From Escherichia phage phiWec188, in sequence record LC739537.1: a stretch of 64,000 nt of DNA; one strand, written 5' to 3'. Position 1 is the first letter of the stretch; every line of letters begins with the position of its first letter. This document shows positions 1,981-59,481 of this stretch, piece after piece. Both the position numbers and the translations under genes were made by a program. The notes below the pieces were generated by a model. It was not told the origin of the DNA and made no database searches. It saw nothing but the letters and a program-made list of their open reading frames with translations.

Positions 1981-3468
1981 TTAGACTCCATACTCGTAGG
2001 AAATGTTATCAAGGTCGAAAGACGGGACAATATTGTAGGCAGGAACAATGTTTCCTTCTGTATATTTACTGTCGTCTTCATTATTAAGTTTAACATAAAC
2101 ACGGAGAGAAGTCAAGCGCCCAAAAGCAAGTGCTGCATAAATAACGCCTTTAATCTGGTCGTTAGTTACAGAAGAACCCAATTCGAAGTAGGCTTGCAGG
2201 TTATCCAGTGCTTCAACAATGTTTTCTTTCTCTGTCCCGCTTAACGTTGTACCATTGATTGTCTGGTATACAAGTTTCAAGGAGTACGTTGCAGTAGCAC
2301 CAGGAGAGAAGCGGATAATCTCTTGTCCACCATCTTCCGTCATGACAGTAATGTTAGTTGTGCCATAAGTCAAGGTATTGATTGGTTTAGTGTCGTAAAT
2401 TACTTTAGCAACTTCTTCGGCACTCCCACCGTACACGATTGTCTGGAAACTCATTGCAGGTGCATGTTCCTGATCGTGGATTGTTGGGTTGTCGTAAATC
2501 TTAACCTTGGTTACGCCGTCAGTCTGCAACAAAGCTTTAATGATAGCTGCGCGTGTACCTGCGTTTGCTTCATCAAGGTTATCGTTGAAACGTGAGCGGA
2601 ACTCTGCATCTGTCTCTACATCTCGTCCTGAAGAGAAAGCATAAAAGTTACCAGAATCAAGGTAGCCTGTGAAGGTTGAAGAGATCCCAGAAATGGATTC
2701 CACACCTACCGGATTGTACCCTGCTTCTGATCCTACCACCGGAACTTCACTCCACTTCGTCCCGACAGGAACAGAAGCATAGAATTTTATTGGTGTTACC
2801 AAACCAACAGGTTCTACATCTCCCGCTGCTGCGAAGCCAACGTAAACGTTACTTGCGTCTGTATGGATTAAATCACGATCCGTAGTGGAGAGGTTGTCTC
2901 GAATAAAGTTTGCAAGATCTGTAATGAATGTCGAAGAAGCTGGAGAGAGTACACGACTATTCAAACCACCATCATTTGCACTTTGTGCGTAGAAAGTTAT
3001 GTTAGCCACTCCTGTAGCTGTTGCATTCGCACGCGAGATTTGATATGCTGCTATCTTAGCATTCAACATGGTAGGTGCGCTGACATAATAGTTCATGTCG
3101 TTGTCTGCATTAAAATACGTATCCGTGCCAAGTTCAAAAGTCCAAGGGGCTTTGTTGTTGCTTTTCACATAAGCAAAACCTGAACCAGGTGCAGCGGCAG
3201 AACGATAGAAACCACGTTTGGAGAAGATTTCATCAAGGTAAATACCTTCAGCACCATCCAGTGTCTGGGTATTATAAACTCCTTGCATTCCTTCCCATAA
3301 TGTGTAGTCGGTATAAGCAATAATACGGAACAACTGTCCGAAGACAGTATCCTCCGAAGTCGCTGCATCGGCACCAAAAGTGTTCTTAAGTGCAGTCATA
3401 TAGTTGTTAAGTACATCATCGAATGTCGGGATTACAAATCCCGCATCGGTTAAGCCATATTCATCCAT
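1981..3468 (-). CDS. structural protein (tail fibre or baseplate component)
   Basis: 495-aa ORF, ATG start, within tail gene block; no recognisable catalytic motif. Confidence 0.45.
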   Translation of the reverse strand: MDEYGLTDAGFVIPTFDDVLNNYMTALKNTFGADAATSEDTVFGQLFRIIAYTDYTLWEGMQGVYNTQTLDGAEGIYLDEIFSKRGFYRSAAAPGSGFAYVKSNNKAPWTFELGTDTYFNADNDMNYYVSAPTMLNAKIAAYQISRANATATGVANITFYAQSANDGGLNSRVLSPASSTFITDLANFIRDNLSTTDRDLIHTDASNVYVGFAAAGDVEPVGLVTPIKFYASVPVGTKWSEVPVVGSEAGYNPVGVESISGISSTFTGYLDSGNFYAFSSGRDVETDAEFRSRFNDNLDEANAGTRAAIIKALLQTDGVTKVKIYDNPTIHDQEHAPAMSFQTIVYGGSAEEVAKVIYDTKPINTLTYGTTNITVMTEDGGQEIIRFSPGATATYSLKLVYQTINGTTLSGTEKENIVEALDNLQAYFELGSSVTNDQIKGVIYAALAFGRLTSLRVYVKLNNEDDSKYTEGNIVPAYNIVPSFDLDNISYEYGV

Positions 3469-3737
3469 TACTCATCCTCTTTGTTGTGTTCAGGGGTGGA
3501 AGACCTACCCCAGCGCAGGTCTATTAGATTTTTCATTAGTCGTGAGGGAGTGACCATAAAAACAAAAGCCCAGCCCATCCATTCAGGAATTTCTTTTTCT
3601 ATTCCTAAAAAGATGAACATACCTGTCATTGTCATCATACCTACGGCGTTCCATACTTTAGTGGAACTTACCCCGTTTCCAGGGTAAGTACAAAACATTC
3701 CGCGAACAAACTTCTTAAACCCATTCTCTTTAGGCAT
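3468..3737 (-). CDS. small membrane protein (two hydrophobic segments)
   Basis: 89 aa; hydrophobic stretches [15 protein letters not shown] and [12 protein letters not shown]; overlaps neighbours by start/stop coupling. Confidence 0.3.
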
Positions 3738-5796
3738 AAACTGTATCCTGTAGGTAAACGTTTAAAGGAACATTGCCCATATAGAAAACTTGCGAATGAG
3801 AGTTGACCACAGTAATAGAGTCTTGCATTATTTGTGGGTAAGCCCATATATATTGCTTAAGACCTTCGAACTTGCTATTGTTCAGGACTATGTTCCCGAT
3901 GATCATTTTCCACAAATATGTGCGATAATTTGAATCAGGATCAAAGCCGTACAACGGTGCTAATGTGGCATCTGGTACGAACCCAGCCAAGTAGTGAATA
4001 TCTTCGTAAGGGAATCCCAAAGTCTCGTGCGGTATTGTTACGGCATCGTAGGCTTTAATCATCTTACCTTGAAGCAACCAATCATAACATTCAGAACAAT
4101 AGAAATCGAAAGCTTCTGGAATGTAGTAATCTTTAGGAAAGTTTACTTTCTCCATTAACCCGTTGCCAATGATCGAAGGTAAGAACGGAAGTAATGTCAC
4201 TTGAGCGCCTGGGTATGCAGCGCGTGTATCCGTTGCAAACTTGGTAACTCTCAAACCCAATTTACGAGACAAGAACTCGTAATACTGATCGTATGGGCTT
4301 CCTGTTTTATAGTTATCAATCGTCCCAGCATCTTGTGCAAACAAACCTGTTTCTGTATTGAAAGCCAGTTTTGTCGTATAATCATAAATGCAAGGCAGGT
4401 TGGTAGCTGTATTGTACCACCACCACGGTTCCCCAATTTGAATAACAACCGGAATGTCGTTAGTTGTGGAAATGGAGGCGATCTTGTTAATTACATTCTG
4501 AAGATATTGCATACCCTCATCAATTGTAGGAGACAACACATAGCTCGGAGGCACATAACCTGTAGCAGCTAAAGCATCGTTCCAATCGTGCTGCACCCAC
4601 TCAACAGGGCAGACTGTGCTCATCAATTCGAAACTCAAAGAGTTCATAACTGTGTAGCCGGAGGCTTTGGCGATTGCATGGAAGCTGTTCAACCACGCTT
4701 CAGTCGCTGGGTTAAGAAACACGGAAGTGTTTAATTGCCAGCCATCATTGCCGTCCCATTCAAACTGGTAGTAGTGCGACATTCCGTTGTAATGGTTTAT
4801 CATACCACGATACCCTAAAGCATAAGTGTTGGAAATAACACGTTCAGGGGTAAGATTATACATGTCATCGTAAGATGTGCACATACGAATATCGTGTGCT
4901 GCTTGCACCAAATTGCTAACGTCCATCTGACTAAACCCAGTGTCAGGTTCAAGCAAAGTGAATTTCATTGACGACTGCATATTGTTCATCTGAACAATTT
5001 CTGTTATGTCTTGGTAGCGTGTCGTGATCAATGAGAAGAAGAAATTGTCCACCTGTGTGGTGTCCACTTCAATATCATTGTTCGGTCCAGACTTAATATT
5101 ACTAAAGTCTAAGCGGATATCTGCTGTTTTGCCATCTTCTGATACATTGAAAGCATAATAACTCAAATCAATGTAGTGAATCGTCTTATCAACCAATGTT
5201 AAAGTAATAGTTGGGATCAACGGAGCATCATTGAACCCTGGCATGTTTGCACTAAGTTCTAATTTAAACCAGAGCTTCTCTTCACTTAAATCTTGGTGAG
5301 GAAGAAAACCTACGCCCTTATGATCAAAGGTGTCTGTTGTGTGCCAAATAACACCTGCCAAACCTGCTGCTGTACGGTTAACAAAGTACGCCGTAAAGGA
5401 ATCCCCACTGGAAATTATGGAACAACTCTCTGTTGCTTGGGAGTCGATAGTCCAGAACTTAGGAGAGAACATTTTAGCTTTGGTTGAGGTCCATGTAATC
5501 GGAGTGGTGTTCTCTTGTCTCGTCGTAATGACACACTCGATCTTGGTTTCAACCATCGTGTTGTTTTCGCTGATACCAGAAACTTCTAAAAAGAAGTTAA
5601 TATCTATTGAGTTTTTTGGTCGTTCGTAAACATCAACCACAATTGTTGCAGAGTCGGCGTTAGCAGGGAACACTAAGGTTCCCGACTTCGCTACATAATC
5701 TCTACCGGAGACTGCCGTTCCATCGACAGTCTTGTAGTTGAACGAACTCACATTTACTCGTTTGTCTCTTGTGACAGTAAATGTTGCCTGTTTCAT
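3730..5796 (-). CDS. large tail protein (possible receptor-binding protein or tailspike)
   Basis: 688-aa ORF with ATG start in the distal tail module; Trp/Tyr-rich globular region. Confidence 0.45.
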
Positions 5797-52298: not shown

Positions 52299-53287
52299 GA
52301 TACCTGGTAACAGGTGGTCTTGGTTTCATTGGGAGCGCCGTAGTGCGCTCTCTTTGTCAAGATCCTAAAAATGAAGTTTTTGTTATTGATAAAATGGGCT
52401 ATGCTGCTGACATTGAAAATGTCGGAGATATTACTCATGCGAAACTAAGCATGACAGATCTGGTCGATGAAGCACAAGTTAAAAACTTGGTTGTTGAGTG
52501 TAACCCTGATTTCATCATTCACTTGGCAGCAGAGAGTCATGTAGACAATTCGATCAAGAATCCACGAGCTTTTATCGACTCTAACATCATCGGTACATAT
52601 AATCTGTTAGAAGCTGCAAGGCTTCTTCCTAAGAACAAGCTGAAGATGTTTGTACACGTCTCTACAGACGAAGTGTACGGCGATATGGAGGACTCTGGTG
52701 CTCCCTTTACCGAAGAGACAGCTTATGCTCCTTCAAGCCCATACAGCGCGTCTAAGGCGGCATCTGATCACCTTGTCAAAGCTTGGCACCGTACTTACGA
52801 TTTACCTGTAGTGATAACCAACTGTTCCAATAACTTTGGGCCTTACCAACACCCTGAAAAATTGATTCCAAAAGTGATCACGAACATCTTGACAGACCAA
52901 CCTATTCCCGTATACGGTAAAGGCGATCAGGTACGAGATTGGCTTTTCGTAGAAGATCATGCACGAGCTATTATTTTGGCAGCAACGGGCGGGGAAGTAG
53001 GACAAACCTACAACGTAGGTACACGCAATCCTAAAACAAACATGGAAATCATTTACATGATTTGTGATTACATGGATGCTGTTCACCCATCCTTCGGGAC
53101 ATACCCTGCTTCCGGTTTGATTAGTTTTGTTGAAGATCGTAAAGGTCATGACTTGCATTATGAAATCAATCCTGCTAAGATTGAATCTGAACTGGGTTGG
53201 AAAGCAAACTCTACATTCGAAGAAGACTTGTACTCTACGATTGAATGGTATTTAAATAATCCTCAATGGTGGAGTATGAAGATTTAA
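52295..53287 (+). CDS. rmlB: dTDP-glucose 4,6-dehydratase
   Basis: N-terminus [18 protein letters not shown] (Rossmann GxxGxxG), [21 protein letters not shown] (SDR catalytic YxxxK); near-collinear with bacterial RmlB. Confidence 0.85.
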
Positions 53288-53295
53288 GGAGGGTT

Positions 53296-54174
53296 ATGAA
53301 AGGTATTATTTTAGCGGGAGGAAGTGGAACCCGCCTACATCCTGTAACACGCAGTGTGAGCAAGCAATTGCTCCCTGTGTATGACAAACCTATGATTTAT
53401 TATCCTTTATCAGTCTTGATGTTGTCAGATATTAAGGATATCTTAATCATCACAACCCCAGGCGATCAGGAAGATTTTGAGTATCTTCTTGGAGATGGGT
53501 CTATGTTTGGAATAAAGATCACTTACGCAATGCAGTCTGAACCACGAGGTCTTGCAGATGCTTTCATCATCGGTAAAGATTTTATTGGGGAAGATTCTGT
53601 TGCTCTTATTTTAGGGGATAACTTGTTCTTCGGACAAAGTTTCGGAAAACTCCTTATCCAAGCCAGCGAAATGGTGGATGTTTGGGGTGGAGCTTGTATC
53701 TTCGGGTATCTGGTGAAAGATCCTGAACGATTCGGTGTTGTTGAGTTTGGAAGTAATCGCCAAGCTATCTCTATTGAAGAGAAACCGGAACATCCCAAAT
53801 CAGACTATGCAGTCACGGGTTTGTATTTCTATGACAACTCTGTTGTTCAACGTGCATTGGAAGTAACTCCTTCCGATCGTGGAGAACTGGAGATCACAGA
53901 TATCAATCGCAGCTACCTCGAAGACAGGAAGTTACAAGTGGAAGTTCTTGGAAGAGGATTCACTTGGTTGGATACAGGGACACACGCCAGTCTAATGGAA
54001 GCAGGTCAATTCGTGCAGACTATTGAGAACTGCCAAGGATTGAAGATTGCGTGCCTGGAAGAGATTGCTTTCAAAAAAGGGTGGATTTCTTTAGAGACTT
54101 TGGTGTATCATGGCAACTCATTGAAGAAAACAGAGTACGGGCAATATCTGTTAAAATTAGCGGAGGGTAAATGA
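53296..54174 (+). CDS. rmlA: glucose-1-phosphate thymidylyltransferase
   Basis: [39 protein letters not shown] closely matches the RmlA N-terminal signature; ATG at 53296 with AAGGAGGG RBS. Confidence 0.85.
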
Positions 54175-54731
54175 AAATAAAAGAATTAAGTATTCCTGGT
54201 CTGGTTGTCTTTAAACCTCAAGTTTACAAAGATGATCGTGGTTCCTTCACGGAGACGTTTAACGAGAAGATTTACGAAGAGGTTATTGGCAAACAAACGT
54301 TTGTTCAGGATAACCATTCATTCTCTACTTTAGGTGTTCTTCGCGGAATGCACTTTCAAGTAAATAACCCGCAAGGTAAGCTTGTACGTTGCACACGAGG
54401 TGAAGTTTTTGACGTGGCTGTAGATCTTCGTGAAGGTAGTCCAACCTTCGGACAATGGGAAGGTGTGATTCTTAGTGGGTGTAACAATAAACAGTTGTGG
54501 ATTCCACCTGGCTTTGCACATGGTTTTGTTGTAACCTCTTATGAAGCCAACTTTGAATACAAGTGCACCAACTACTACGATCCGGCATCTGAACGTAGTT
54601 TGTTGTGGAACGATCCTACTGTGAATATTGATTGGGGTTTTGATATGATTTTCAATGATGAGAATTTTGTACCCATCATTTCGGAAAAGGATGCACAAGC
54701 TAAAACACTGAAGGAGCTTATGGGATCATGA
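54171..54731 (+). CDS. rmlC: dTDP-4-dehydrorhamnose 3,5-epimerase
   Basis: 186 aa cupin-type protein; DDRGSF, RGMHFQ and [11 protein letters not shown] match RmlC conserved blocks. Confidence 0.8.
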
Positions 54732-55570
54732 AAACATATTTAGTATTGGGTGGTAATGGTCAATTAGGTCAGGCACTGCGTAAAGTGGTGCCGGAGAATG
54801 TGACTTTGGTGTATCCAGAAAAGCGTGTAGATATCACCAGTTTTGAAGCTGTGCGGAAAGCGATCATGGAAACCCCAAATATTAACGGTGTTATCAACTG
54901 TGCGGCATACACTGCTGTGGACAAAGCCGAGACAGATGTTGATGCAGCTATGGCTGTAAATTTACACGGGGCAGCTAATATTGCTGCCTTCTGTAAGGCT
55001 TGGGATATTGACATGGTGCATATTTCTACTGACTATGTGTTCAACAGCGATAAACCGTTGTTCCATCAGGATGAACCCAACCCTATCAATGTTTACGGGT
55101 TATCTAAAAGTTTGGGTGAAGCTGCTGTTCGTGGTATCTACCATAAAGCTTTTATTATCCGCACGGCTTCTGTGTATAGCGAGTTTGGTAACAACTTCCT
55201 GAAGACTATGGTATCTCGTTACAACGATGGTCAAAGAAACTTCTCGGTAGTTGCAGATCAAACATCTCGACCAACTTATGCCCCAGATTTGGCTAAGATG
55301 ATTTTCCAAGTGTTGGAAACAGGATATAACACCCGTACTTTGCATTACGCTGGGAACATCACTGTTTCGTGGCACCAGTTCGCAAAAATGATATTGACAC
55401 GTATGCCTGAATCTGTTATTATACACCCGACCTCTGCTGCAACCTATAATTCGGCAGCGATGCGACCAGCAAAGTCTATACTAATTACGTCTGGTTGGAA
55501 CGAACCTTCAAGCGTCGGACAAGGTATTGAAGAATCTTTAGCAGTATTACTTAATAAGGAGAGAGCATGA
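54728..55570 (+). CDS. rmlD: dTDP-4-dehydrorhamnose reductase
   Basis: 280 aa; NCAAYTAVDKAE, STDYVF, NVYGLSK...GE, GNNFLKTM and RPTYA correspond to RmlD conserved segments. Confidence 0.8.
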   Translation: MKTYLVLGGNGQLGQALRKVVPENVTLVYPEKRVDITSFEAVRKAIMETPNINGVINCAAYTAVDKAETDVDAAMAVNLHGAANIAAFCKAWDIDMVHISTDYVFNSDKPLFHQDEPNPINVYGLSKSLGEAAVRGIYHKAFIIRTASVYSEFGNNFLKTMVSRYNDGQRNFSVVADQTSRPTYAPDLAKMIFQVLETGYNTRTLHYAGNITVSWHQFAKMILTRMPESVIIHPTSAATYNSAAMRPAKSILITSGWNEPSSVGQGIEESLAVLLNKERA

Positions 55571-55827
55571 ATTTTGTAATTTACGGCAAACCAAATTGCC
55601 AGTTCTGTGAAATGTCCAAACAACTCTTAACTATGCGTGAAAAAGAGTTTGAATATCTGACATTAGATCAAGATTATGATTTTGAAGTGATGACTCAAGC
55701 AGTGATCGCAGCAACAGGAATTGCACCTCGCACCTTCCCGCAGATCTTTGTGGAAGAGCTTGGAGCAGTAACCCACGTAGGCGGTTTTACCGAACTGCGT
55801 GATTTCATGGCTCAAATTGCGGAGTAA
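55567..55827 (+). CDS. glutaredoxin-like protein (NrdH/Grx family)
   Basis: 86 aa with N-terminal CQFC redox motif in a thioredoxin-fold context (VIYGKPNCQFCEMSKQLL). Confidence 0.65.
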   Translation: MNFVIYGKPNCQFCEMSKQLLTMREKEFEYLTLDQDYDFEVMTQAVIAATGIAPRTFPQIFVEELGAVTHVGGFTELRDFMAQIAE

Positions 55828-56519: not shown

Positions 56520-56531
56520 AGGAGTGCTACT

Positions 56532-57287
56532 ATGGGAAAAACAGCTACCGCTAAATCACCGCGCCAGAAGTTAGCTTCTAATGCGAAAGTAGAAAGTCGT
56601 TATGCTGCAAAAGCAGTTGGAAATGATGACTATCGTTTAGATGGGTTTTCACCAGAAGGAGATCAGCAGCAAATCGTTCAAAGTATGATCTGGAATGATC
56701 TTACAGTCGTAAATGCTCCAGCAGGGACAGGCAAGACTTCCGTGACTTTATGGAAAGCTTTGCAGATGCTTCGAGCAGGAGATTTCCGTAAGCTTCTTTT
56801 TATTAAAAACCCGACTGAAGTTGGTGATGATCAGATTGGTTTCCTTTCGGGAGATAAAACTGATAAACTGGCGGCGCACTACGAATCAACCAAACGAATC
56901 TTCCAGCAGTTTATGACTGCAAACAAATTAGAGAATGATATTGGTTCCGGTAAGATTGAACTTAATATCCCGAACTACCTACTGGGTGCTACCCTGGACA
57001 ACACTATCGTGATCATTGATGAAGCACAGCTTATGTCTCCAGAAACATTAAAACTTCTGGTAGAGCGTGCAGGGATCAACACTCATGTTGTTGTTCTTGG
57101 AGATGTTCGTCAAACCTACGCTATCAAAAAGCGTGCAAACGGTTTGAAAGATCTTCTTGACAAAGTTGCCCCTGAAGGTGAAGATGGTGTTCGTGTCCCT
57201 CTGGTAGACTTTATCGGTTATGTGCAGTTAACCACAGATGACAACAAACGATCTCGTTTGTCTAAGTTCATCACGGAAATTTATTAA
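56532..57287 (+). CDS. phoH: PhoH-like ATPase
   Basis: Walker A APAGTGKTSV, Walker B VIIDEAQ; ATG at 56532 with AAGGAG RBS (track ORF from 56478 overlaps lysozyme). Confidence 0.75.
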   Translation: MGKTATAKSPRQKLASNAKVESRYAAKAVGNDDYRLDGFSPEGDQQQIVQSMIWNDLTVVNAPAGTGKTSVTLWKALQMLRAGDFRKLLFIKNPTEVGDDQIGFLSGDKTDKLAAHYESTKRIFQQFMTANKLENDIGSGKIELNIPNYLLGATLDNTIVIIDEAQLMSPETLKLLVERAGINTHVVVLGDVRQTYAIKKRANGLKDLLDKVAPEGEDGVRVPLVDFIGYVQLTTDDNKRSRLSKFITEIY

Positions 57288-57325: not shown

Positions 57326-57823
57326 ATGGTACAGACAATTATAGATCGGACTGGTATTGATGAATGTTACCAAACTGGGCTTGTGAAGCCTAACGAGTTC
57401 CGACAGATTTGCGTGAATCATATTGAGAAAGAAATTGCACTAACTTTGGAGAACCTTACCCTCCGAGACAAGCTGTCAATGTTTGTGGCTTGGTGTAAAG
57501 GTGAAGATTGGTTATTGGCCCATTTTCAAGAACTTTCTGATAGTCAAGAAGGCTTATATGAATGTATAATAGGAATAGCTGGCTCCAATCCTGAACTTCT
57601 CCATTTGGAAGAAGAAGAGGCGAAGTTACTGTTCTTAAGCAACATGTTCAATCGTAAAGCATTGCTTGTTCGTGAGTGTAGTGATCTTTTAAATCATCCA
57701 CTGGCGATCACAAACGAAATACTGGTTGACAAAGAGACATTACGTGCGATAGACTATCTGCGCAAGTATGTCAACGGCGGGAAAGCAGTTCTTAAAACAT
57801 TAACAGAGGAGGAAGCAGAATGA
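57326..57823 (+). CDS. hypothetical protein
   Basis: 165-aa ORF, AGGGAGG RBS. Confidence 0.4.
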   Translation: MVQTIIDRTGIDECYQTGLVKPNEFRQICVNHIEKEIALTLENLTLRDKLSMFVAWCKGEDWLLAHFQELSDSQEGLYECIIGIAGSNPELLHLEEEEAKLLFLSNMFNRKALLVRECSDLLNHPLAITNEILVDKETLRAIDYLRKYVNGGKAVLKTLTEEEAE

Positions 57824-58506
57824 CTACAATTATCGCAACCAAAAACAAGATCCTTAGCGACGGTAAAGTAACTTTCGGTGGTCGTGTAGATTCAACCAAT
57901 TTCAAGAAAGTACGTAAGATTGGGGATTATCTCGTAGGTGGCGCAGGGCGTTTAACTTCGGTTTTAGCTTTCTTCCAGTGGTTCGAACAGAACCTGCAAT
58001 GTGAAGCGGCGCGTGAGGCAGTGCCTGGGTTGATGATCAGTTCTAACCCTGATCGTGAAGATGAAGAGTTTATTGCTCTCGTTGTTCACCCAGACGGACG
58101 TATTTTCCTGCATGAAGGTAATGATCCTACCCGTGCATACCCAATCGACGAAGAATACTACGCAGTAGGCAGTGGTTCCGATTTTGCGCTCGCAGCACTG
58201 GATGGTGGTGCTTCTCCAGAAGCTGCTATGGAGGTTGCCAAGAAGCGTGACGCATACTCTGGTGGCGAAACATTCGTTGAAGAATTAGACGAGATCATCG
58301 AACTGACTGACGAAGATCTCGAAAACTTCACCAAACAAGAACTGATCAACCTGCTTAAGTTTGGCGATCCTGCTGGTGAAGAAACTCCTCGTGACGTGGC
58401 AGGTGACGAGACGGCAGGAGAAGTTGTAGTAGAAAAAGACTTGACTTCAAAACCGGAAAATATTAATCTCGTAAATGTAGCGGATTTCGAGAATCCCGCT
58501 TCTTAA
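57820..58506 (+). CDS. HslV-like Ntn-hydrolase peptidase (proteasome beta-type)
   Basis: Begins MTTIIATKNKILSDGKVTFGG (Thr immediately after Met, as in HslV TTIV...); GGAGRLTS and AVGSGSDFALAAL match HslV blocks as recalled. Confidence 0.55.
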   Translation: MTTIIATKNKILSDGKVTFGGRVDSTNFKKVRKIGDYLVGGAGRLTSVLAFFQWFEQNLQCEAAREAVPGLMISSNPDREDEEFIALVVHPDGRIFLHEGNDPTRAYPIDEEYYAVGSGSDFALAALDGGASPEAAMEVAKKRDAYSGGETFVEELDEIIELTDEDLENFTKQELINLLKFGDPAGEETPRDVAGDETAGEVVVEKDLTSKPENINLVNVADFENPAS

Positions 58507-58512
58507 TAAAAC

Positions 58513-58534
58513 TGCCCCTTCGGGGGCATTTCTT
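58513..58534 (+). terminator. rho-independent terminator candidate
   Basis: TGCCCC-TTCG-GGGGCA hairpin followed by TTTCTT. Confidence 0.5.
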
Positions 58535-58551
58535 ACGCAGAGGAGATTACT

Positions 58552-58989
58552 ATGTTGAACGTTCCTGTTAAATTCGTCGATAGCTGTGTTAATGCTTACC
58601 AACAAACTTGTAAACGTGCCTCAAACTGTTTGCAGTCTTTGATTCAAACGCGGTACGTGATCCAAAAGAAAAGAAAGTGGTTTGGTAAGGATTCTTATAG
58701 TGTTAATGCGTTCGGGGAGTATCAACTCCAGTATGACGATAACATGCAACACATCTTAGAGTTTTTACTGATAAAAGATAAAATCTCCCCTGCGGATTAC
58801 CAGTTACTTAAATTCTACGATCAGAGTTTGTCTATTGAGGAAGTTATTCAAGATATCCTTTCTCGTAAGACAGATAAGAACACTGTTGGTATTACAAACT
58901 TAGAGATGCAATTGCTCAATGAGATCTTTTTGTTTGTGGAAGATGAGTCTGTAACTAAGGAGGAGCTTTTAAATGGCTTTAAGCTATGA
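58552..58989 (+). CDS. hypothetical protein
   Basis: 145-aa ORF. Confidence 0.4.
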   Translation: MLNVPVKFVDSCVNAYQQTCKRASNCLQSLIQTRYVIQKKRKWFGKDSYSVNAFGEYQLQYDDNMQHILEFLLIKDKISPADYQLLKFYDQSLSIEEVIQDILSRKTDKNTVGITNLEMQLLNEIFLFVEDESVTKEELLNGFKL

Positions 58990-59481
58990 TCGTCCAGAGT
59001 CCGATTACTATCCGACTCCGCAAAAAGCGATTAACTCGTTATTTAGCATTATTGATTTTAAAAATTTGAAAGAGGAAGGATTTACATTTGCAGAACCGTG
59101 TAGAGGACAAGCAGCGGCTATTTACCGTCACTTTCCTGAAGGTTCTCAGTATTGTGAGCTTGAAGAAGGTAAAGATTATTTTAGTCACGTATGGGAAAAT
59201 CGTCCCGACATTATAATCACGAATCCTCCATTCAAGCTGGCATTAGAGTTCTTGGAAAAGAGCTTGAAAGAAGCAGACGTGTCAGTCTACCTGCTTCGCC
59301 TGGGATTCCTTGAGTCAAAGAAACGTCGAGCGTTTCATCAAGAAAACCCCCTACGAATTTGATTGTACTCTCCGAACGTCCTTCGTTCGTAGCAGGTGGA
59401 ACAGATAAGACAGCGTATGCTTGGTACGTATACGATCCAAAACAAATTTTGGGTCTAACTCAACCATTTTATTTCGTTTAA
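58973..59481 (+). pseudogene. Dam-like DNA N6-adenine methyltransferase, reading frame interrupted at a C5 tract
   Basis: N-terminal 129-aa ORF (58973-59362) has DYYPTP and ITNPPF motifs; stops just after AAAACCCCC (59343-59351). Adding one C restores a 170-aa frame ending at 59481 (...ENPPTNLIVLSERPSFVAGGTDKTAYAWYVYD...). Confidence 0.45.

What the first reader, a model, noticed from the sequence alone, without database searches (positions are those of the whole stretch)
57820..58506. Stand-alone HslV-like (proteasome beta-type) peptidase without an adjacent HslU ATPase
The protein starts Met-Thr-Thr, so Met removal would expose the N-terminal Thr nucleophile of Ntn-hydrolase peptidases, and internal blocks resemble HslV. 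No AAA+ partner is encoded nearby; flanking genes are PhoH and small unknowns. A phage HslV might pair with host HslU or another unfoldase to degrade host or phage proteins in a timed manner, or it could be a divergent prohead protease encoded away from the head module.
Basis: partly seen in the sequence, partly recalled or inferred. Interest (0 to 1): 0.5.

Follow-up and report, generated by a model that had tools for sequence, protein, structure and literature searches.

The report
Phage proteasome-like peptidase, no ATPase partner
This phage gene encodes a small proteasome/HslV-like threonine peptidase from a family already described in phages; it appears intact and active but has no dedicated unfoldase partner, its substrate is unknown, and a related phage grows without it.

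Summary
Window 57820-58506 (+) encodes a 228-aa protein starting Met-Thr-Thr. It matches Pfam Proteasome above threshold, PHROG 1040 "peptidase HslV family" (E 3e-58) and solved HslV structures. Its AlphaFold model matches HslV, BPH and 20S beta subunits. The full Thr1/Asp17/Lys33/Gly47/Ser129/Asp166 constellation is 87-100% conserved across 150 family representatives.

It is not new. The window is Escherichia phage PhiWec190, and orthologues in phAPEC8 and phi92 are already annotated as HslV-family peptidase or putative 20S proteasome. [quoted passage not shown]

It is not a true HslV. It scores 31-32 bits against NCBIfam HslV cut-offs of 137-158, helix H2 is predicted as an acidic loop, and the lysine that binds the HslU tail is not conserved.

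This clade adds a conserved C-terminal two-helix motif and a polyacidic tail. It lies in a conserved lysozyme-PhoH-small ORF-PPH block among early/middle genes. Phage VEcB carries a 1.1-kb deletion removing the catalytic N-terminus, so the gene is dispensable.

Function is inferred to be ATPase-independent accessory proteolysis. The substrate is unknown.

The parts
57820..58506 (+). CDS of the proteasome-like (PPH-type, long form) N-terminal-threonine peptidase, 228 aa including the stop codon
   Evidence: ORF list and sequence; Pfam PF00227, PHROG 1040 and PDB HslV hits; AF2 model and Foldseek.
57806..57812 (+). Shine-Dalgarno sequence GAGGAGG, 7 nt upstream of the ATG. It lies inside the 3' end of the upstream ORF, whose stop overlaps the start (ATGA).
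   Evidence: Read directly from the sequence. The same overlap and RBS are annotated in phi92 and phAPEC8.
57823..57825 (+). Codon of Thr2, which becomes the catalytic Thr1 after Met removal
   Evidence: T2 is present in 95% of 150 family representatives, and MTT[IV] begins 205 of 226 homologues. It aligns with Thr1 of E. coli HslV.
57820..58284 (+). Catalytic core, aa 1-155. Key residues: Asp14 (=Asp17), Lys30 (=Lys33), Gly43 (=Gly47), Gly117-Ser118-Gly119 (=Ser129 motif), and Arg143-Asp-Ala-Tyr-Ser-Gly-Gly149 (=Asp166/Ser169/Gly170 motif, identical to proteasome beta5 'RDAYSGG' as I recall that sequence).
   Evidence: Conservation is 96, 99, 99, 100/87/100 and 97%. pLDDT is >90. The core is under strong purifying selection: dN 0.058 with saturated dS against phAPEC8, and omega 0.12 for phAPEC8 versus phi92.
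58021..58071 (+). Loop aa 68-84 (VPGLMISSNPDREDEEF). It occupies the place of helix H2 and the pore loop. A Pro and a [DE]3-Phe motif are conserved.
   Evidence: DSSP on the model shows a single helix 45-67 followed by coil to residue 84. In the family, Pro is 81% at the position aligned with query residue 76 (Asn in this protein), positions 81-83 are acidic, and Phe84 is 61%. Fuchs et al. state that PPH/RPC lack H2.
58303..58365 (+). Conserved C-terminal two-helix motif, aa 162-182 (LTDEDLENFTKQELINLLKFG)
   Evidence: The motif [IL]-T-x-E-x-[LA]-x-x-[FML]-[ST]-[KR]-E-[EQ]-[LI]-[LI]-x-[LM]-[LI]-[LF]-[GTP] was found in 85 non-identical long-form homologues. The model has helices at 164-169 and 172-181, pLDDT 72-80. 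There is no significant Pfam or PDB match.
58366..58503 (+). Disordered polyacidic tail, aa 183-228
   Evidence: pLDDT is <50 for residues 188-226. Residues 156-228 carry net charge -15, and long forms have a median net charge of -28 against -1.5 for short forms. The sequence evolves nearly neutrally, omega 0.67-1.25.
58513..58536 (+). Terminator-like hairpin (TGCCCC-TTCG-GGGGCA) followed by a T-rich run, 7 nt after the stop codon
   Evidence: Terminator scan. The count of such sites in the region is not above the shuffled expectation, so this is a plausible element, not a proven one.
57326..57823 (+). Upstream 165-aa all-alpha ORF (PHROG 14834), translationally coupled to the peptidase gene. 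It is a candidate partner or regulator. This is inferred from position only.
56529..57287 (+). PhoH-like P-loop ATPase, the conserved syntenic neighbour (not an AAA+ unfoldase)
   Evidence: Pfam PF02562 at E 1.6e-36. The lysozyme-PhoH-(0-6 small ORFs)-peptidase order is seen in Stephanstirmvirinae, Vibrio qdvp001, Shewanella 1/4, Aeromonas Plateaulakevirus and three metagenomic contigs.

Best explanation
[quoted passage not shown] PPH is a compact HslV/BPH-like branch of the proteasome-beta Ntn-hydrolase family.

Shown here: host methionine aminopeptidase can expose Thr1, and there is no propeptide. The full proteasome-type active site (Thr1, Asp17, Lys33, Gly47, Ser129, Asp166/Ser169) is present and under strong purifying selection, so the protein is selected for catalysis. 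The phage encodes no HslU/ClpX/Lon-type unfoldase. The gene lies in a conserved lysozyme-PhoH-small ORF-peptidase block among nucleotide-metabolism genes, on the strand opposite the structural module. The gene is dispensable in a viable relative.

Inferred: it assembles into HslV-like rings through the retained H3/H4 helices. It works as an ATP-independent peptidase or amidase on unfolded or peptide-sized substrates during the early/middle phase of infection. The conserved C-terminal two-helix motif and polyacidic tail, which the ~140-aa short forms lack, would act as a recruitment or gating module, for a substrate, for the coupled upstream helical protein, or for a host factor. The function would be accessory (host takeover, counter-defence or protein/peptide turnover), not essential.
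For: Family and fold. Active-site conservation in 150 representatives at 50% clustering, and MTT N-termini. Purifying selection. PPH traits: H2 absent, compact core, phage-encoded, no AAA+ partner found by Fuchs et al.. A continuous E-value series runs from long forms to 138-155-aa short forms. No unfoldase in the genome: the only AAA-domain protein (PHROG 2376) best resembles clamp-loader/DnaC-type ATPases. It has no aromatic-hydrophobic-Gly pore loop between its Walker A and B motifs. It also occurs in many Gram-positive phages, a group absent from the PPH hit list. Conserved synteny. C-terminal motif and charge. Dispensability: a 1,121-bp deletion at a 9-bp microhomology in phage VEcB removes Thr1 to about residue 63.
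Against: No biochemical activity has been reported for any PPH. Related stand-alone homologues (Anbu) showed no activity on standard proteasome substrates, and HslV alone is nearly inactive, so ATP-independent activity is an assumption. Oligomeric state could not be modelled with these tools. Loss of H2 could alter or prevent ring formation. Expression timing is inferred from gene neighbourhood only; the promoter and terminator scans are not above the shuffled expectation. The role of the C-terminal module is pure inference.
Confidence: 0.6

Rival explanations
1. Alternative proteolytic core for the host unfoldase: the phage peptidase docks to host HslU (or another host AAA+ such as ClpX) and redirects ATP-dependent degradation towards phage-chosen substrates.
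For: HslV is the closest solved relative. All recorded hosts of PPH-bearing phages are Proteobacteria, which generally possess HslUV (my own knowledge). HslV needs HslU tails inserted between subunits to become active. The conserved C-terminal motif could be a docking element.
Against: HslV equivalog models score far below cut-off. H2, one of the two apical helices that relay HslU binding (Sousa et al. 2000, from memory), is predicted as a loop. The position of HslV Lys28, the HslU C-terminal carboxylate partner (from memory), is Ser here and not conserved in the family; Arg35 is also variable. Fuchs et al. found no AAA+ co-occurrence.
Confidence: 0.15
2. A non-proteolytic Ntn enzyme: a specific transpeptidase or ligase (as connectase is within this superfamily), or an amidohydrolase acting on a non-protein amide. 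In this reading the C-terminal module confers specificity.
For: The superfamily includes a monomeric, highly specific ligase, and many members lack detectable protease activity. Loss of H2 may preclude rings.
Against: There is no connectase-like S3/S4 insertion covering the active site; the model shows a plain HslV-like core. The nearest relatives by sequence and structure are the self-compartmentalising HslV, BPH and 20S beta subunits.
Confidence: 0.1
3. A decoy that interferes with host HslUV by titrating HslU or co-assembling with HslV, thereby protecting phage proteins. Catalysis would be irrelevant.
For: HslV-like fold. Phages are known to inhibit host proteases, for example T4 PinA against Lon (my own knowledge).
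Against: Every catalytic residue is 87-100% conserved across very divergent homologues. That is not expected of a decoy. The HslU-docking features are the ones that are not conserved.
Confidence: 0.07
4. A divergent prohead (capsid maturation) protease encoded away from the head module.
For: No recognisable prohead protease was found in the head module: the 372-aa ORF between portal and decoration protein has no Pfam, NCBIfam or PDB match.
Against: The gene sits among early/middle metabolic genes on the opposite strand to the structural genes. The fold is unrelated to known prohead proteases. Homologues occur as ~140-aa genes in very different phages and prophages. Viable phage VEcB lacks the catalytic N-terminus.
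Confidence: 0.02

Closest known systems
[quoted passage not shown]
   Same: It is a group-I proteasome-like protein encoded by tailed phages. It has a compact core without S12/H5 and no propeptide. Helix H2 is missing. The catalytic triad and oxyanion Gly are conserved. No AAA+ gene co-occurs.
   Different: PPH was described as ~140 residues. This clade carries an extra ~70-220-residue C-terminal extension with a conserved two-helix motif and an acidic tail. Direct comparison with the published reference WP_042125023.1 could not be made.
[quoted passage not shown]
   Same: It lacks H2 and has a C-terminal extension of unknown fold.
   Different: RPC is reported only from Proteobacteria, not from phages, and as more divergent than PPH. 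The reference WP_140207863 was not available for comparison.
HslV / ClpQ (MEROPS T1B), the peptidase of the HslUV protease
   Same: It is the best solved-structure relative. Both have the Met-Thr-Thr N-terminus with no propeptide, and the Thr1/Asp17/Lys33/Gly-Ser-Gly active site.
   Different: Identity is only 23-29%. It fails both NCBIfam HslV equivalog cut-offs. No hslU gene is present. H2 is replaced by an acidic loop. The Lys28 equivalent is absent. Its Asp166 motif is proteasome-type RDAYSGG rather than the GDICIYTN of HslV.
BPH (betaproteobacterial proteasome homologue, PDB 5OVS)
   Same: It is a stand-alone double-ring homologue with no known unfoldase and a long, highly acidic pore loop. 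It is among the top structural hits. The acidic loop after H1 in this protein is reminiscent of it.
   Different: BPH retains H2, is chromosomal and bacterial, and has no C-terminal acidic extension.

Membership tests
Proteasome-like Ntn hydrolases (Pfam PF00227, MEROPS family T1) | Profile match above the curated threshold | tested here: met
   PF00227 scores 25.5 bits against a gathering cut-off of 22.4, E 1.2e-5.
Proteasome-like Ntn hydrolases (Pfam PF00227, MEROPS family T1) | N-terminal nucleophile (Thr1) plus Asp17, Lys33, Gly47, Ser129 and Asp166 | tested here: met
   T2, D14, K30, G43, S118 and D144 are all present, and are 95/96/99/99/87(+12% Thr)/97% conserved in 150 representatives.
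Proteasome-like Ntn hydrolases (Pfam PF00227, MEROPS family T1) | Alpha-beta-beta-alpha sandwich fold | tested here: met
   In the AF2 model the core has pLDDT >90. Foldseek hits HslV, BPH and 20S beta subunits at E 5e-11 to 3e-8 with probability 1.00.
HslV (ClpQ) sensu stricto | Equivalog HMM score above the curated cut-off (NCBIfam NF003964, TIGR03692) | tested here: not met
   32.4 bits against 137, and 30.9 bits against 157.75.
HslV (ClpQ) sensu stricto | Partner hslU encoded with it (hslVU operon) | tested here: not met
   No HslU/ClpY-like gene is present in the window or in the 97%-identical annotated genome. The only AAA-domain protein is PHROG 2376, about 49 kb away and not unfoldase-like.
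HslV (ClpQ) sensu stricto | HslU-docking surface: two apical helices (H1+H2) and Lys28, which binds the HslU C-terminal carboxylate (definition recalled from Sousa et al. 2000 and Ramachandran et al. 2002, not re-read here) | tested here: not met
   H2 is predicted as coil over residues 68-84. The Lys28 position is Ser25 here, and in the family it is S 27%, gap 13%, N 12%. Caveats: this rests on a model and on a feature list recalled from memory.
HslV (ClpQ) sensu stricto | Dodecamer of two hexameric rings | not testable with these tools
   Only single-chain prediction is available, and coordinates are not returned.
PPH (Fuchs et al. 2021) | Encoded by tailed phages or prophages | tested here: met
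   The window is Escherichia phage PhiWec190. Homologues occur in 193 phage records.
PPH (Fuchs et al. 2021) | Lacks helix H2; compact core without S12/H5; no propeptide | tested here: met
   The DSSP element order is E3-42, H45-67, coil 68-84, E85-117, H120-128, H133-143, E151-155. The protein starts MTT.
PPH (Fuchs et al. 2021) | About 140 residues | tested here: not met
   The protein is 228 aa: a 155-aa core plus a 73-aa extension. Short 138-155-aa relatives are found at E 1e-29 to 1e-23 with the family profile. It is therefore a long-form relative.
PPH (Fuchs et al. 2021) | Clusters with the reference sequence WP_042125023.1 | not tested
   The reference sequence could not be retrieved with the tools.
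PHROG 1040 'peptidase HslV family' | Profile match | tested here: met
   E 3.4e-58, 198 bits, residues 1-199.
Prohead (capsid maturation) proteases | Match to a known prohead-protease family (HK97/herpes assemblin-like S78/U35, ClpP/S49-like) and location in the head module | tested here: not met
   There are no such Pfam or PHROG hits. The gene lies about 35 kb from the portal/MCP genes, on the other strand.
Anti-phage defence proteins (PADLOC) | Match to a defence-system model | tested here: not met
   No PADLOC hit for the peptidase or for either flanking ORF.

The most novel reading that the evidence does not exclude
The long-form phage proteasome homologue is a two-part device. An ATPase-independent Thr-peptidase ring provides catalysis. 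Its conserved C-terminal two-helix motif and polyacidic (possibly nucleic-acid-mimicking) tail would capture basic host proteins such as nucleoid or defence proteins. Alternatively, the motif would dock the translationally coupled, fold-orphan upstream protein as an adaptor or inhibitor. Together with PhoH this would form a previously unrecognised three-gene accessory module, which phage VEcB lost in one step.
Probability: 0.12. Interest if true: 0.65.

Novelty: already known. Interest (0 to 1): 0.27.

Why it matters
Phage proteasome homologues are widespread: 193 phage records in this collection and 44 BFVD structure clusters. Yet none has a known substrate, oligomeric state or phenotype. This E. 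coli phage clade is a tractable entry point. It has an intact active site, a conserved add-on C-terminal module, a coupled neighbour gene and a natural deletion mutant (VEcB). If the enzyme proved to be an ATP-independent protease aimed at host proteins, it would add a new class of phage takeover or counter-defence factor. It would also inform how proteasome-like rings work without unfoldases. As it stands, the finding re-identifies an already annotated family.

Tried and rejected
1. Dedicated AAA+ partner. The only AAA-domain protein in the genome (PHROG 2376, 379 aa) gives only weak, generic P-loop hits, best to clamp-loader, DnaC and Hda types. It has no [YFW][VIL]G pore loop between Walker A and B. 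It is also found in Enterococcus, Bacillus, Staphylococcus and Lactococcus phages, none of which appear among the PPH hits. Rejected as a specific partner.

3. C-terminal motif as a SAP/HeH/LEM-like or otherwise known domain. A profile against PDB gave a best E of 0.017, to a designed repeat protein. In Pfam, one of 48 members hit LEM at E 0.076. Not supported.

4. Defence or anti-defence annotation through PADLOC: no hits.

5. Literature on the HslU-docking residues of HslV: two full-text searches returned nothing, a third turned up only the Anbu paper (PMC6376114), which gives only the general mechanism, and PMC124242 is not held. That argument therefore rests on memory plus PMC6376114.

6. 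Head-module 372-aa ORF as the real prohead protease: no family or PDB match. Left open.
Full report
**1. What is there**

Window 57820-58506 (+) is an ORF of 228 codons. It begins at the first start codon available in its frame, and the product starts Met-Thr-Thr-Ile. A GAGGAGG Shine-Dalgarno sequence lies 7 nt upstream. The start overlaps the stop of the preceding 165-codon ORF (ATGA). A GC-rich hairpin followed by a T-rich run sits 7 nt after the stop codon.

The window is 100% identical to Escherichia phage PhiWec190 (LC739539.1). This phage belongs to the proposed genus 'Wecvirus' in the subfamily Stephanstirmvirinae (PMC12695924). In that record the gene is labelled 'hypothetical protein'. 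Its orthologues are annotated: 'peptidase HslV family' in RefSeq phAPEC8 gp175 (85% identical) and in PsgM04F.

**2. Is the resemblance real?**

Yes.
- Pfam PF00227 (Proteasome) is matched above its gathering score, 25.5 against 22.4 bits.
- PHROG 1040 'peptidase HslV family' matches at E 3.4e-58.
- phmmer against all PDB sequences returns 13 HslV sequences first (E 1.3e-8 to 2.8e-3), then 20S beta5 subunits. The E. coli HslV alignment begins at residue 1 of both proteins.
- An AlphaFold2 model built on 43 homologues has pLDDT >90 over the core (residues 1-155). Foldseek places HslV, BPH and archaeal/eukaryotic beta subunits on top at probability 1.00.

The active site is complete. It comprises Thr2 (mature Thr1), Asp14 (=Asp17), Lys30 (=Lys33), Gly43 (=Gly47), Gly117-Ser118-Gly119 (=Ser129) and Arg143-Asp-Ala-Tyr-Ser-Gly-Gly149 (=Asp166/Ser169/Gly170). 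The last motif is the proteasome-type sequence, not the HslV-type one.

A profile search of 1.84 billion cluster representatives returned 11,000 hits at E<1e-3 and 58 at E<1e-30. In the best 150 representatives, these positions are conserved at 95, 96, 99, 99, 100/87/100 and 97%. 205 of 226 collected homologues begin MTT[IV].

The core is under strong purifying selection. dN is 0.058 with saturated dS against phAPEC8, and omega is 0.12 for phAPEC8 against phi92. Thr is a permissive P1' residue for methionine aminopeptidase (established knowledge), so no propeptide processing is needed.

**3. What it is not**

*Not a bona fide HslV.* The two NCBIfam HslV equivalog models score 32.4 and 30.9 bits against cut-offs of 137 and 157.75. 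Identity to solved HslVs is 23-29%. The model has a single long helix (45-67) followed by a Pro/Gly-containing acidic loop (68-84, VPGLMISSNPDREDEEF) where HslV has its second apical helix H2. HslU activates HslV by inserting its C-terminal tails into clefts between HslV subunits (PMC6376114). From memory of Sousa et al. 2000 and Ramachandran et al. 2002, which I could not re-read, the tail carboxylate pairs with HslV Lys28 and the signal is relayed by the apical helices. The Lys28 position is Ser25 here and is variable in the family, as is the Arg35 position.

*No unfoldase gene in the phage.* The 97%-identical, PHROG-annotated genome PsgM04F has a single AAA-domain protein (PHROG 2376, 379 aa), about 49 kb away. 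It gives only weak, generic P-loop matches, best to clamp-loader, DnaC and Hda types. It lacks an aromatic-hydrophobic-Gly pore loop between Walker A and B. It also occurs in Enterococcus, Bacillus, Staphylococcus and Lactococcus phages, none of which appear among the PPH hits.

*Not a prohead protease.* The gene lies in a long block with ribonucleotide reductase, thymidylate synthase, dTDP-sugar enzymes, glutaredoxin, lysozyme, PhoH, methyltransferases, Sir2, DprA and a Ser/Thr phosphatase. That block is on the strand opposite the terminase-portal-capsid-tail module.

**4. What it is**

The family has been described. [quoted passage not shown] No co-occurring AAA+ interactor and no informative gene context were found for any of the new homologues.

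The present protein has those traits. It is phage-encoded, has no propeptide, lacks H2, and has a compact core without S12/H5. Its family profile runs continuously into 138-155-aa short forms. It therefore belongs to, or lies next to, PPH. I could not retrieve the published reference sequences to confirm the clustering.

The absence of HslU next to phage HslV-like genes has also been remarked before, for Salmonella jumbo phage pSal-SNUABM-04 (PMC7823757). Structure-based search finds 44 viral clusters with this fold, including many from jumbo phages. In Erwinia phage RAY, a protein of the HslVU family (gp116) localises to the phage nucleus.

**5. What this analysis adds**

*(a) A long form with a conserved C-terminal module.* After the core comes an acidic linker and then a motif found in 85 non-identical homologues: [IL]-T-x-E-x-[LA]-x-x-[FML]-[ST]-[KR]-E-[EQ]-[LI]-[LI]-x-[LM]-[LI]-[LF]-[GTP]. 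In this protein it is residues 162-182, modelled as two short helices at pLDDT 72-80. A disordered polyacidic tail follows. The tail sequence drifts nearly neutrally (omega 0.67-1.25), but its charge is kept. Long forms have a median net charge of -28, against -1.5 for short forms; this protein is -24 with pI 4.3. The motif resembles HeH/SAP-type helix pairs by eye, but no Pfam or PDB match is significant. Short forms lack both H2 and the extension, so the extension is an add-on, not a replacement for H2.

*(b) Conserved synteny.* The order lysozyme - PhoH - (0-6 small ORFs) - peptidase recurs in several places. It is seen in Stephanstirmvirinae, Vibrio phage qdvp001, Shewanella phage 1/4 and Aeromonas Plateaulakevirus. 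It is also seen in three metagenomic contigs whose peptidases are 42-50% identical to this one. It is not seen in Caulobacter or Rhizobium phages, which carry short forms.

*(c) A coupled upstream gene.* The translationally coupled upstream ORF (PHROG 14834) accompanies the peptidase in the enterobacterial-type lineages (hhalign E 3e-29 and 7e-22). It has a confident all-alpha model with no informative fold match. The similarly sized positional counterparts in Vibrio and Aeromonas phages are not detectably homologous, and Shewanella 1/4 has none.

*(d) A natural knockout.* Phage VEcB (Justusliebigvirus) has a 1,121-bp deletion relative to phi92, at a 9-bp microhomology. It fuses PhoH residues 1 to about 112 in frame to the peptidase from about residue 64. 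This removes the PhoH C-terminal half, the whole upstream ORF, and the peptidase's Thr1, Asp17, Lys33 and Gly47. All three genes are therefore dispensable for propagating a viable isolate.

**6. Most likely mechanism**

*Shown.* The protein is an Ntn threonine hydrolase of the proteasome family, selected for catalysis. It has no phage unfoldase. It is encoded among early/middle-type genes. It is accessory.

*Inferred.* It assembles into HslV-like rings, since the ring-stacking helices H3/H4 are retained. It then cleaves unfolded polypeptides or peptides without ATP. The conserved acidic loop after H1 would serve as a BPH-like pore or cavity lining. The C-terminal motif and tail would act as a recruitment or gating element. 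Confidence in the family and chemistry is about 0.9. Confidence in the whole statement is about 0.6.

*Caveats.* No PPH has ever been assayed. Anbu homologues showed no activity on standard proteasome substrates, and HslV alone has only minimal peptidase activity. Oligomeric state could not be modelled here.

*Rivals and their estimated probabilities.*
- Use of host HslU or another host unfoldase: 0.15.
- A specific ligase or amidase role like connectase: 0.10.
- A catalytically irrelevant decoy of host HslUV: 0.07, contradicted by active-site conservation.
- A prohead protease: 0.02.

**7. Verdict**

The gene is an orthologue of already annotated 'HslV family peptidase' genes and a member of, or close relative of, a published phage-specific family. 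It is not novel as a kind. What remains open is the function of the whole family. This clade offers practical handles for that question: the C-terminal module, the coupled neighbour gene and the natural deletion.

Noticed in passing
window 58973-59481 (frameshift near 59350): The small DNA methyltransferase downstream is split into two ORFs (58973-59362 and 59359-59481). The cause is a 1-nt deletion (AAAACCC-CCTA against AAAACCCACCTA) relative to the intact 510-nt gene in PsgM04F and phAPEC8. It is either a sequencing error or a pseudogene.
   Followed up: partly
[not shown]
   Followed up: yes
L016 (Escherichia phage VEcB NC_052663.1) 2165-2968, compared with L008 (phi92) 3065-4185: A 1,121-bp deletion at a 9-bp microhomology creates an in-frame PhoH(1 to ~112)-peptidase(~64 to end) fusion, which RefSeq annotates as 'peptidase HslV family'. 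It amounts to a natural triple knockout of PhoH, the gp059-family ORF and the peptidase active site.
   Followed up: yes
P0050 (Escherichia phage vB_EcoM-Ro121c4YLVW): A 159-aa annotated product starts at the equivalent of residue 72 of the peptidase (MIHSDPDKEDEEF...). It may be another N-terminally truncated or frameshifted allele, or a mis-called start.
   Followed up: no
L002 41112-42251 (PsgM04F; outside the window, about 49 kb from the peptidase gene): A 379-aa AAA-domain ATPase (PHROG 2376) of unknown role, shared with rV5-like phages, jumbo phages and many Gram-positive myophages. It lacks a canonical pore-1 loop.
   Followed up: partly
window 53266-55827: A run of dTDP-sugar pathway genes precedes the lysozyme-PhoH-peptidase block: glucose-1-phosphate thymidylyltransferase, dTDP-4-dehydrorhamnose 3,5-epimerase and a reductase/epimerase, followed by a glutaredoxin. 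This suggests phage-directed dTDP-rhamnose-type sugar synthesis.
   Followed up: no
OR584014.1 (Pseudomonas phage PsgM04F) and MG065645.1 (Campylobacter phage A145): Records with non-enterobacterial declared hosts resemble E. coli Stephanstirmvirinae phages. PsgM04F is 97% identical over the 3-kb query. A145 encodes a 74.5%-identical peptidase, the same value as E. coli Justusliebigvirus phages. The host labels may be wrong, or the host range unusually broad.
   Followed up: no
L004 26941-28059 (PsgM04F head module): A 372-aa ORF between the portal/methyltransferase genes and the decoration/major capsid genes (PHROG 2970) has no Pfam, NCBIfam or PDB match. By position it is a candidate scaffold or prohead protease.
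   Followed up: partly
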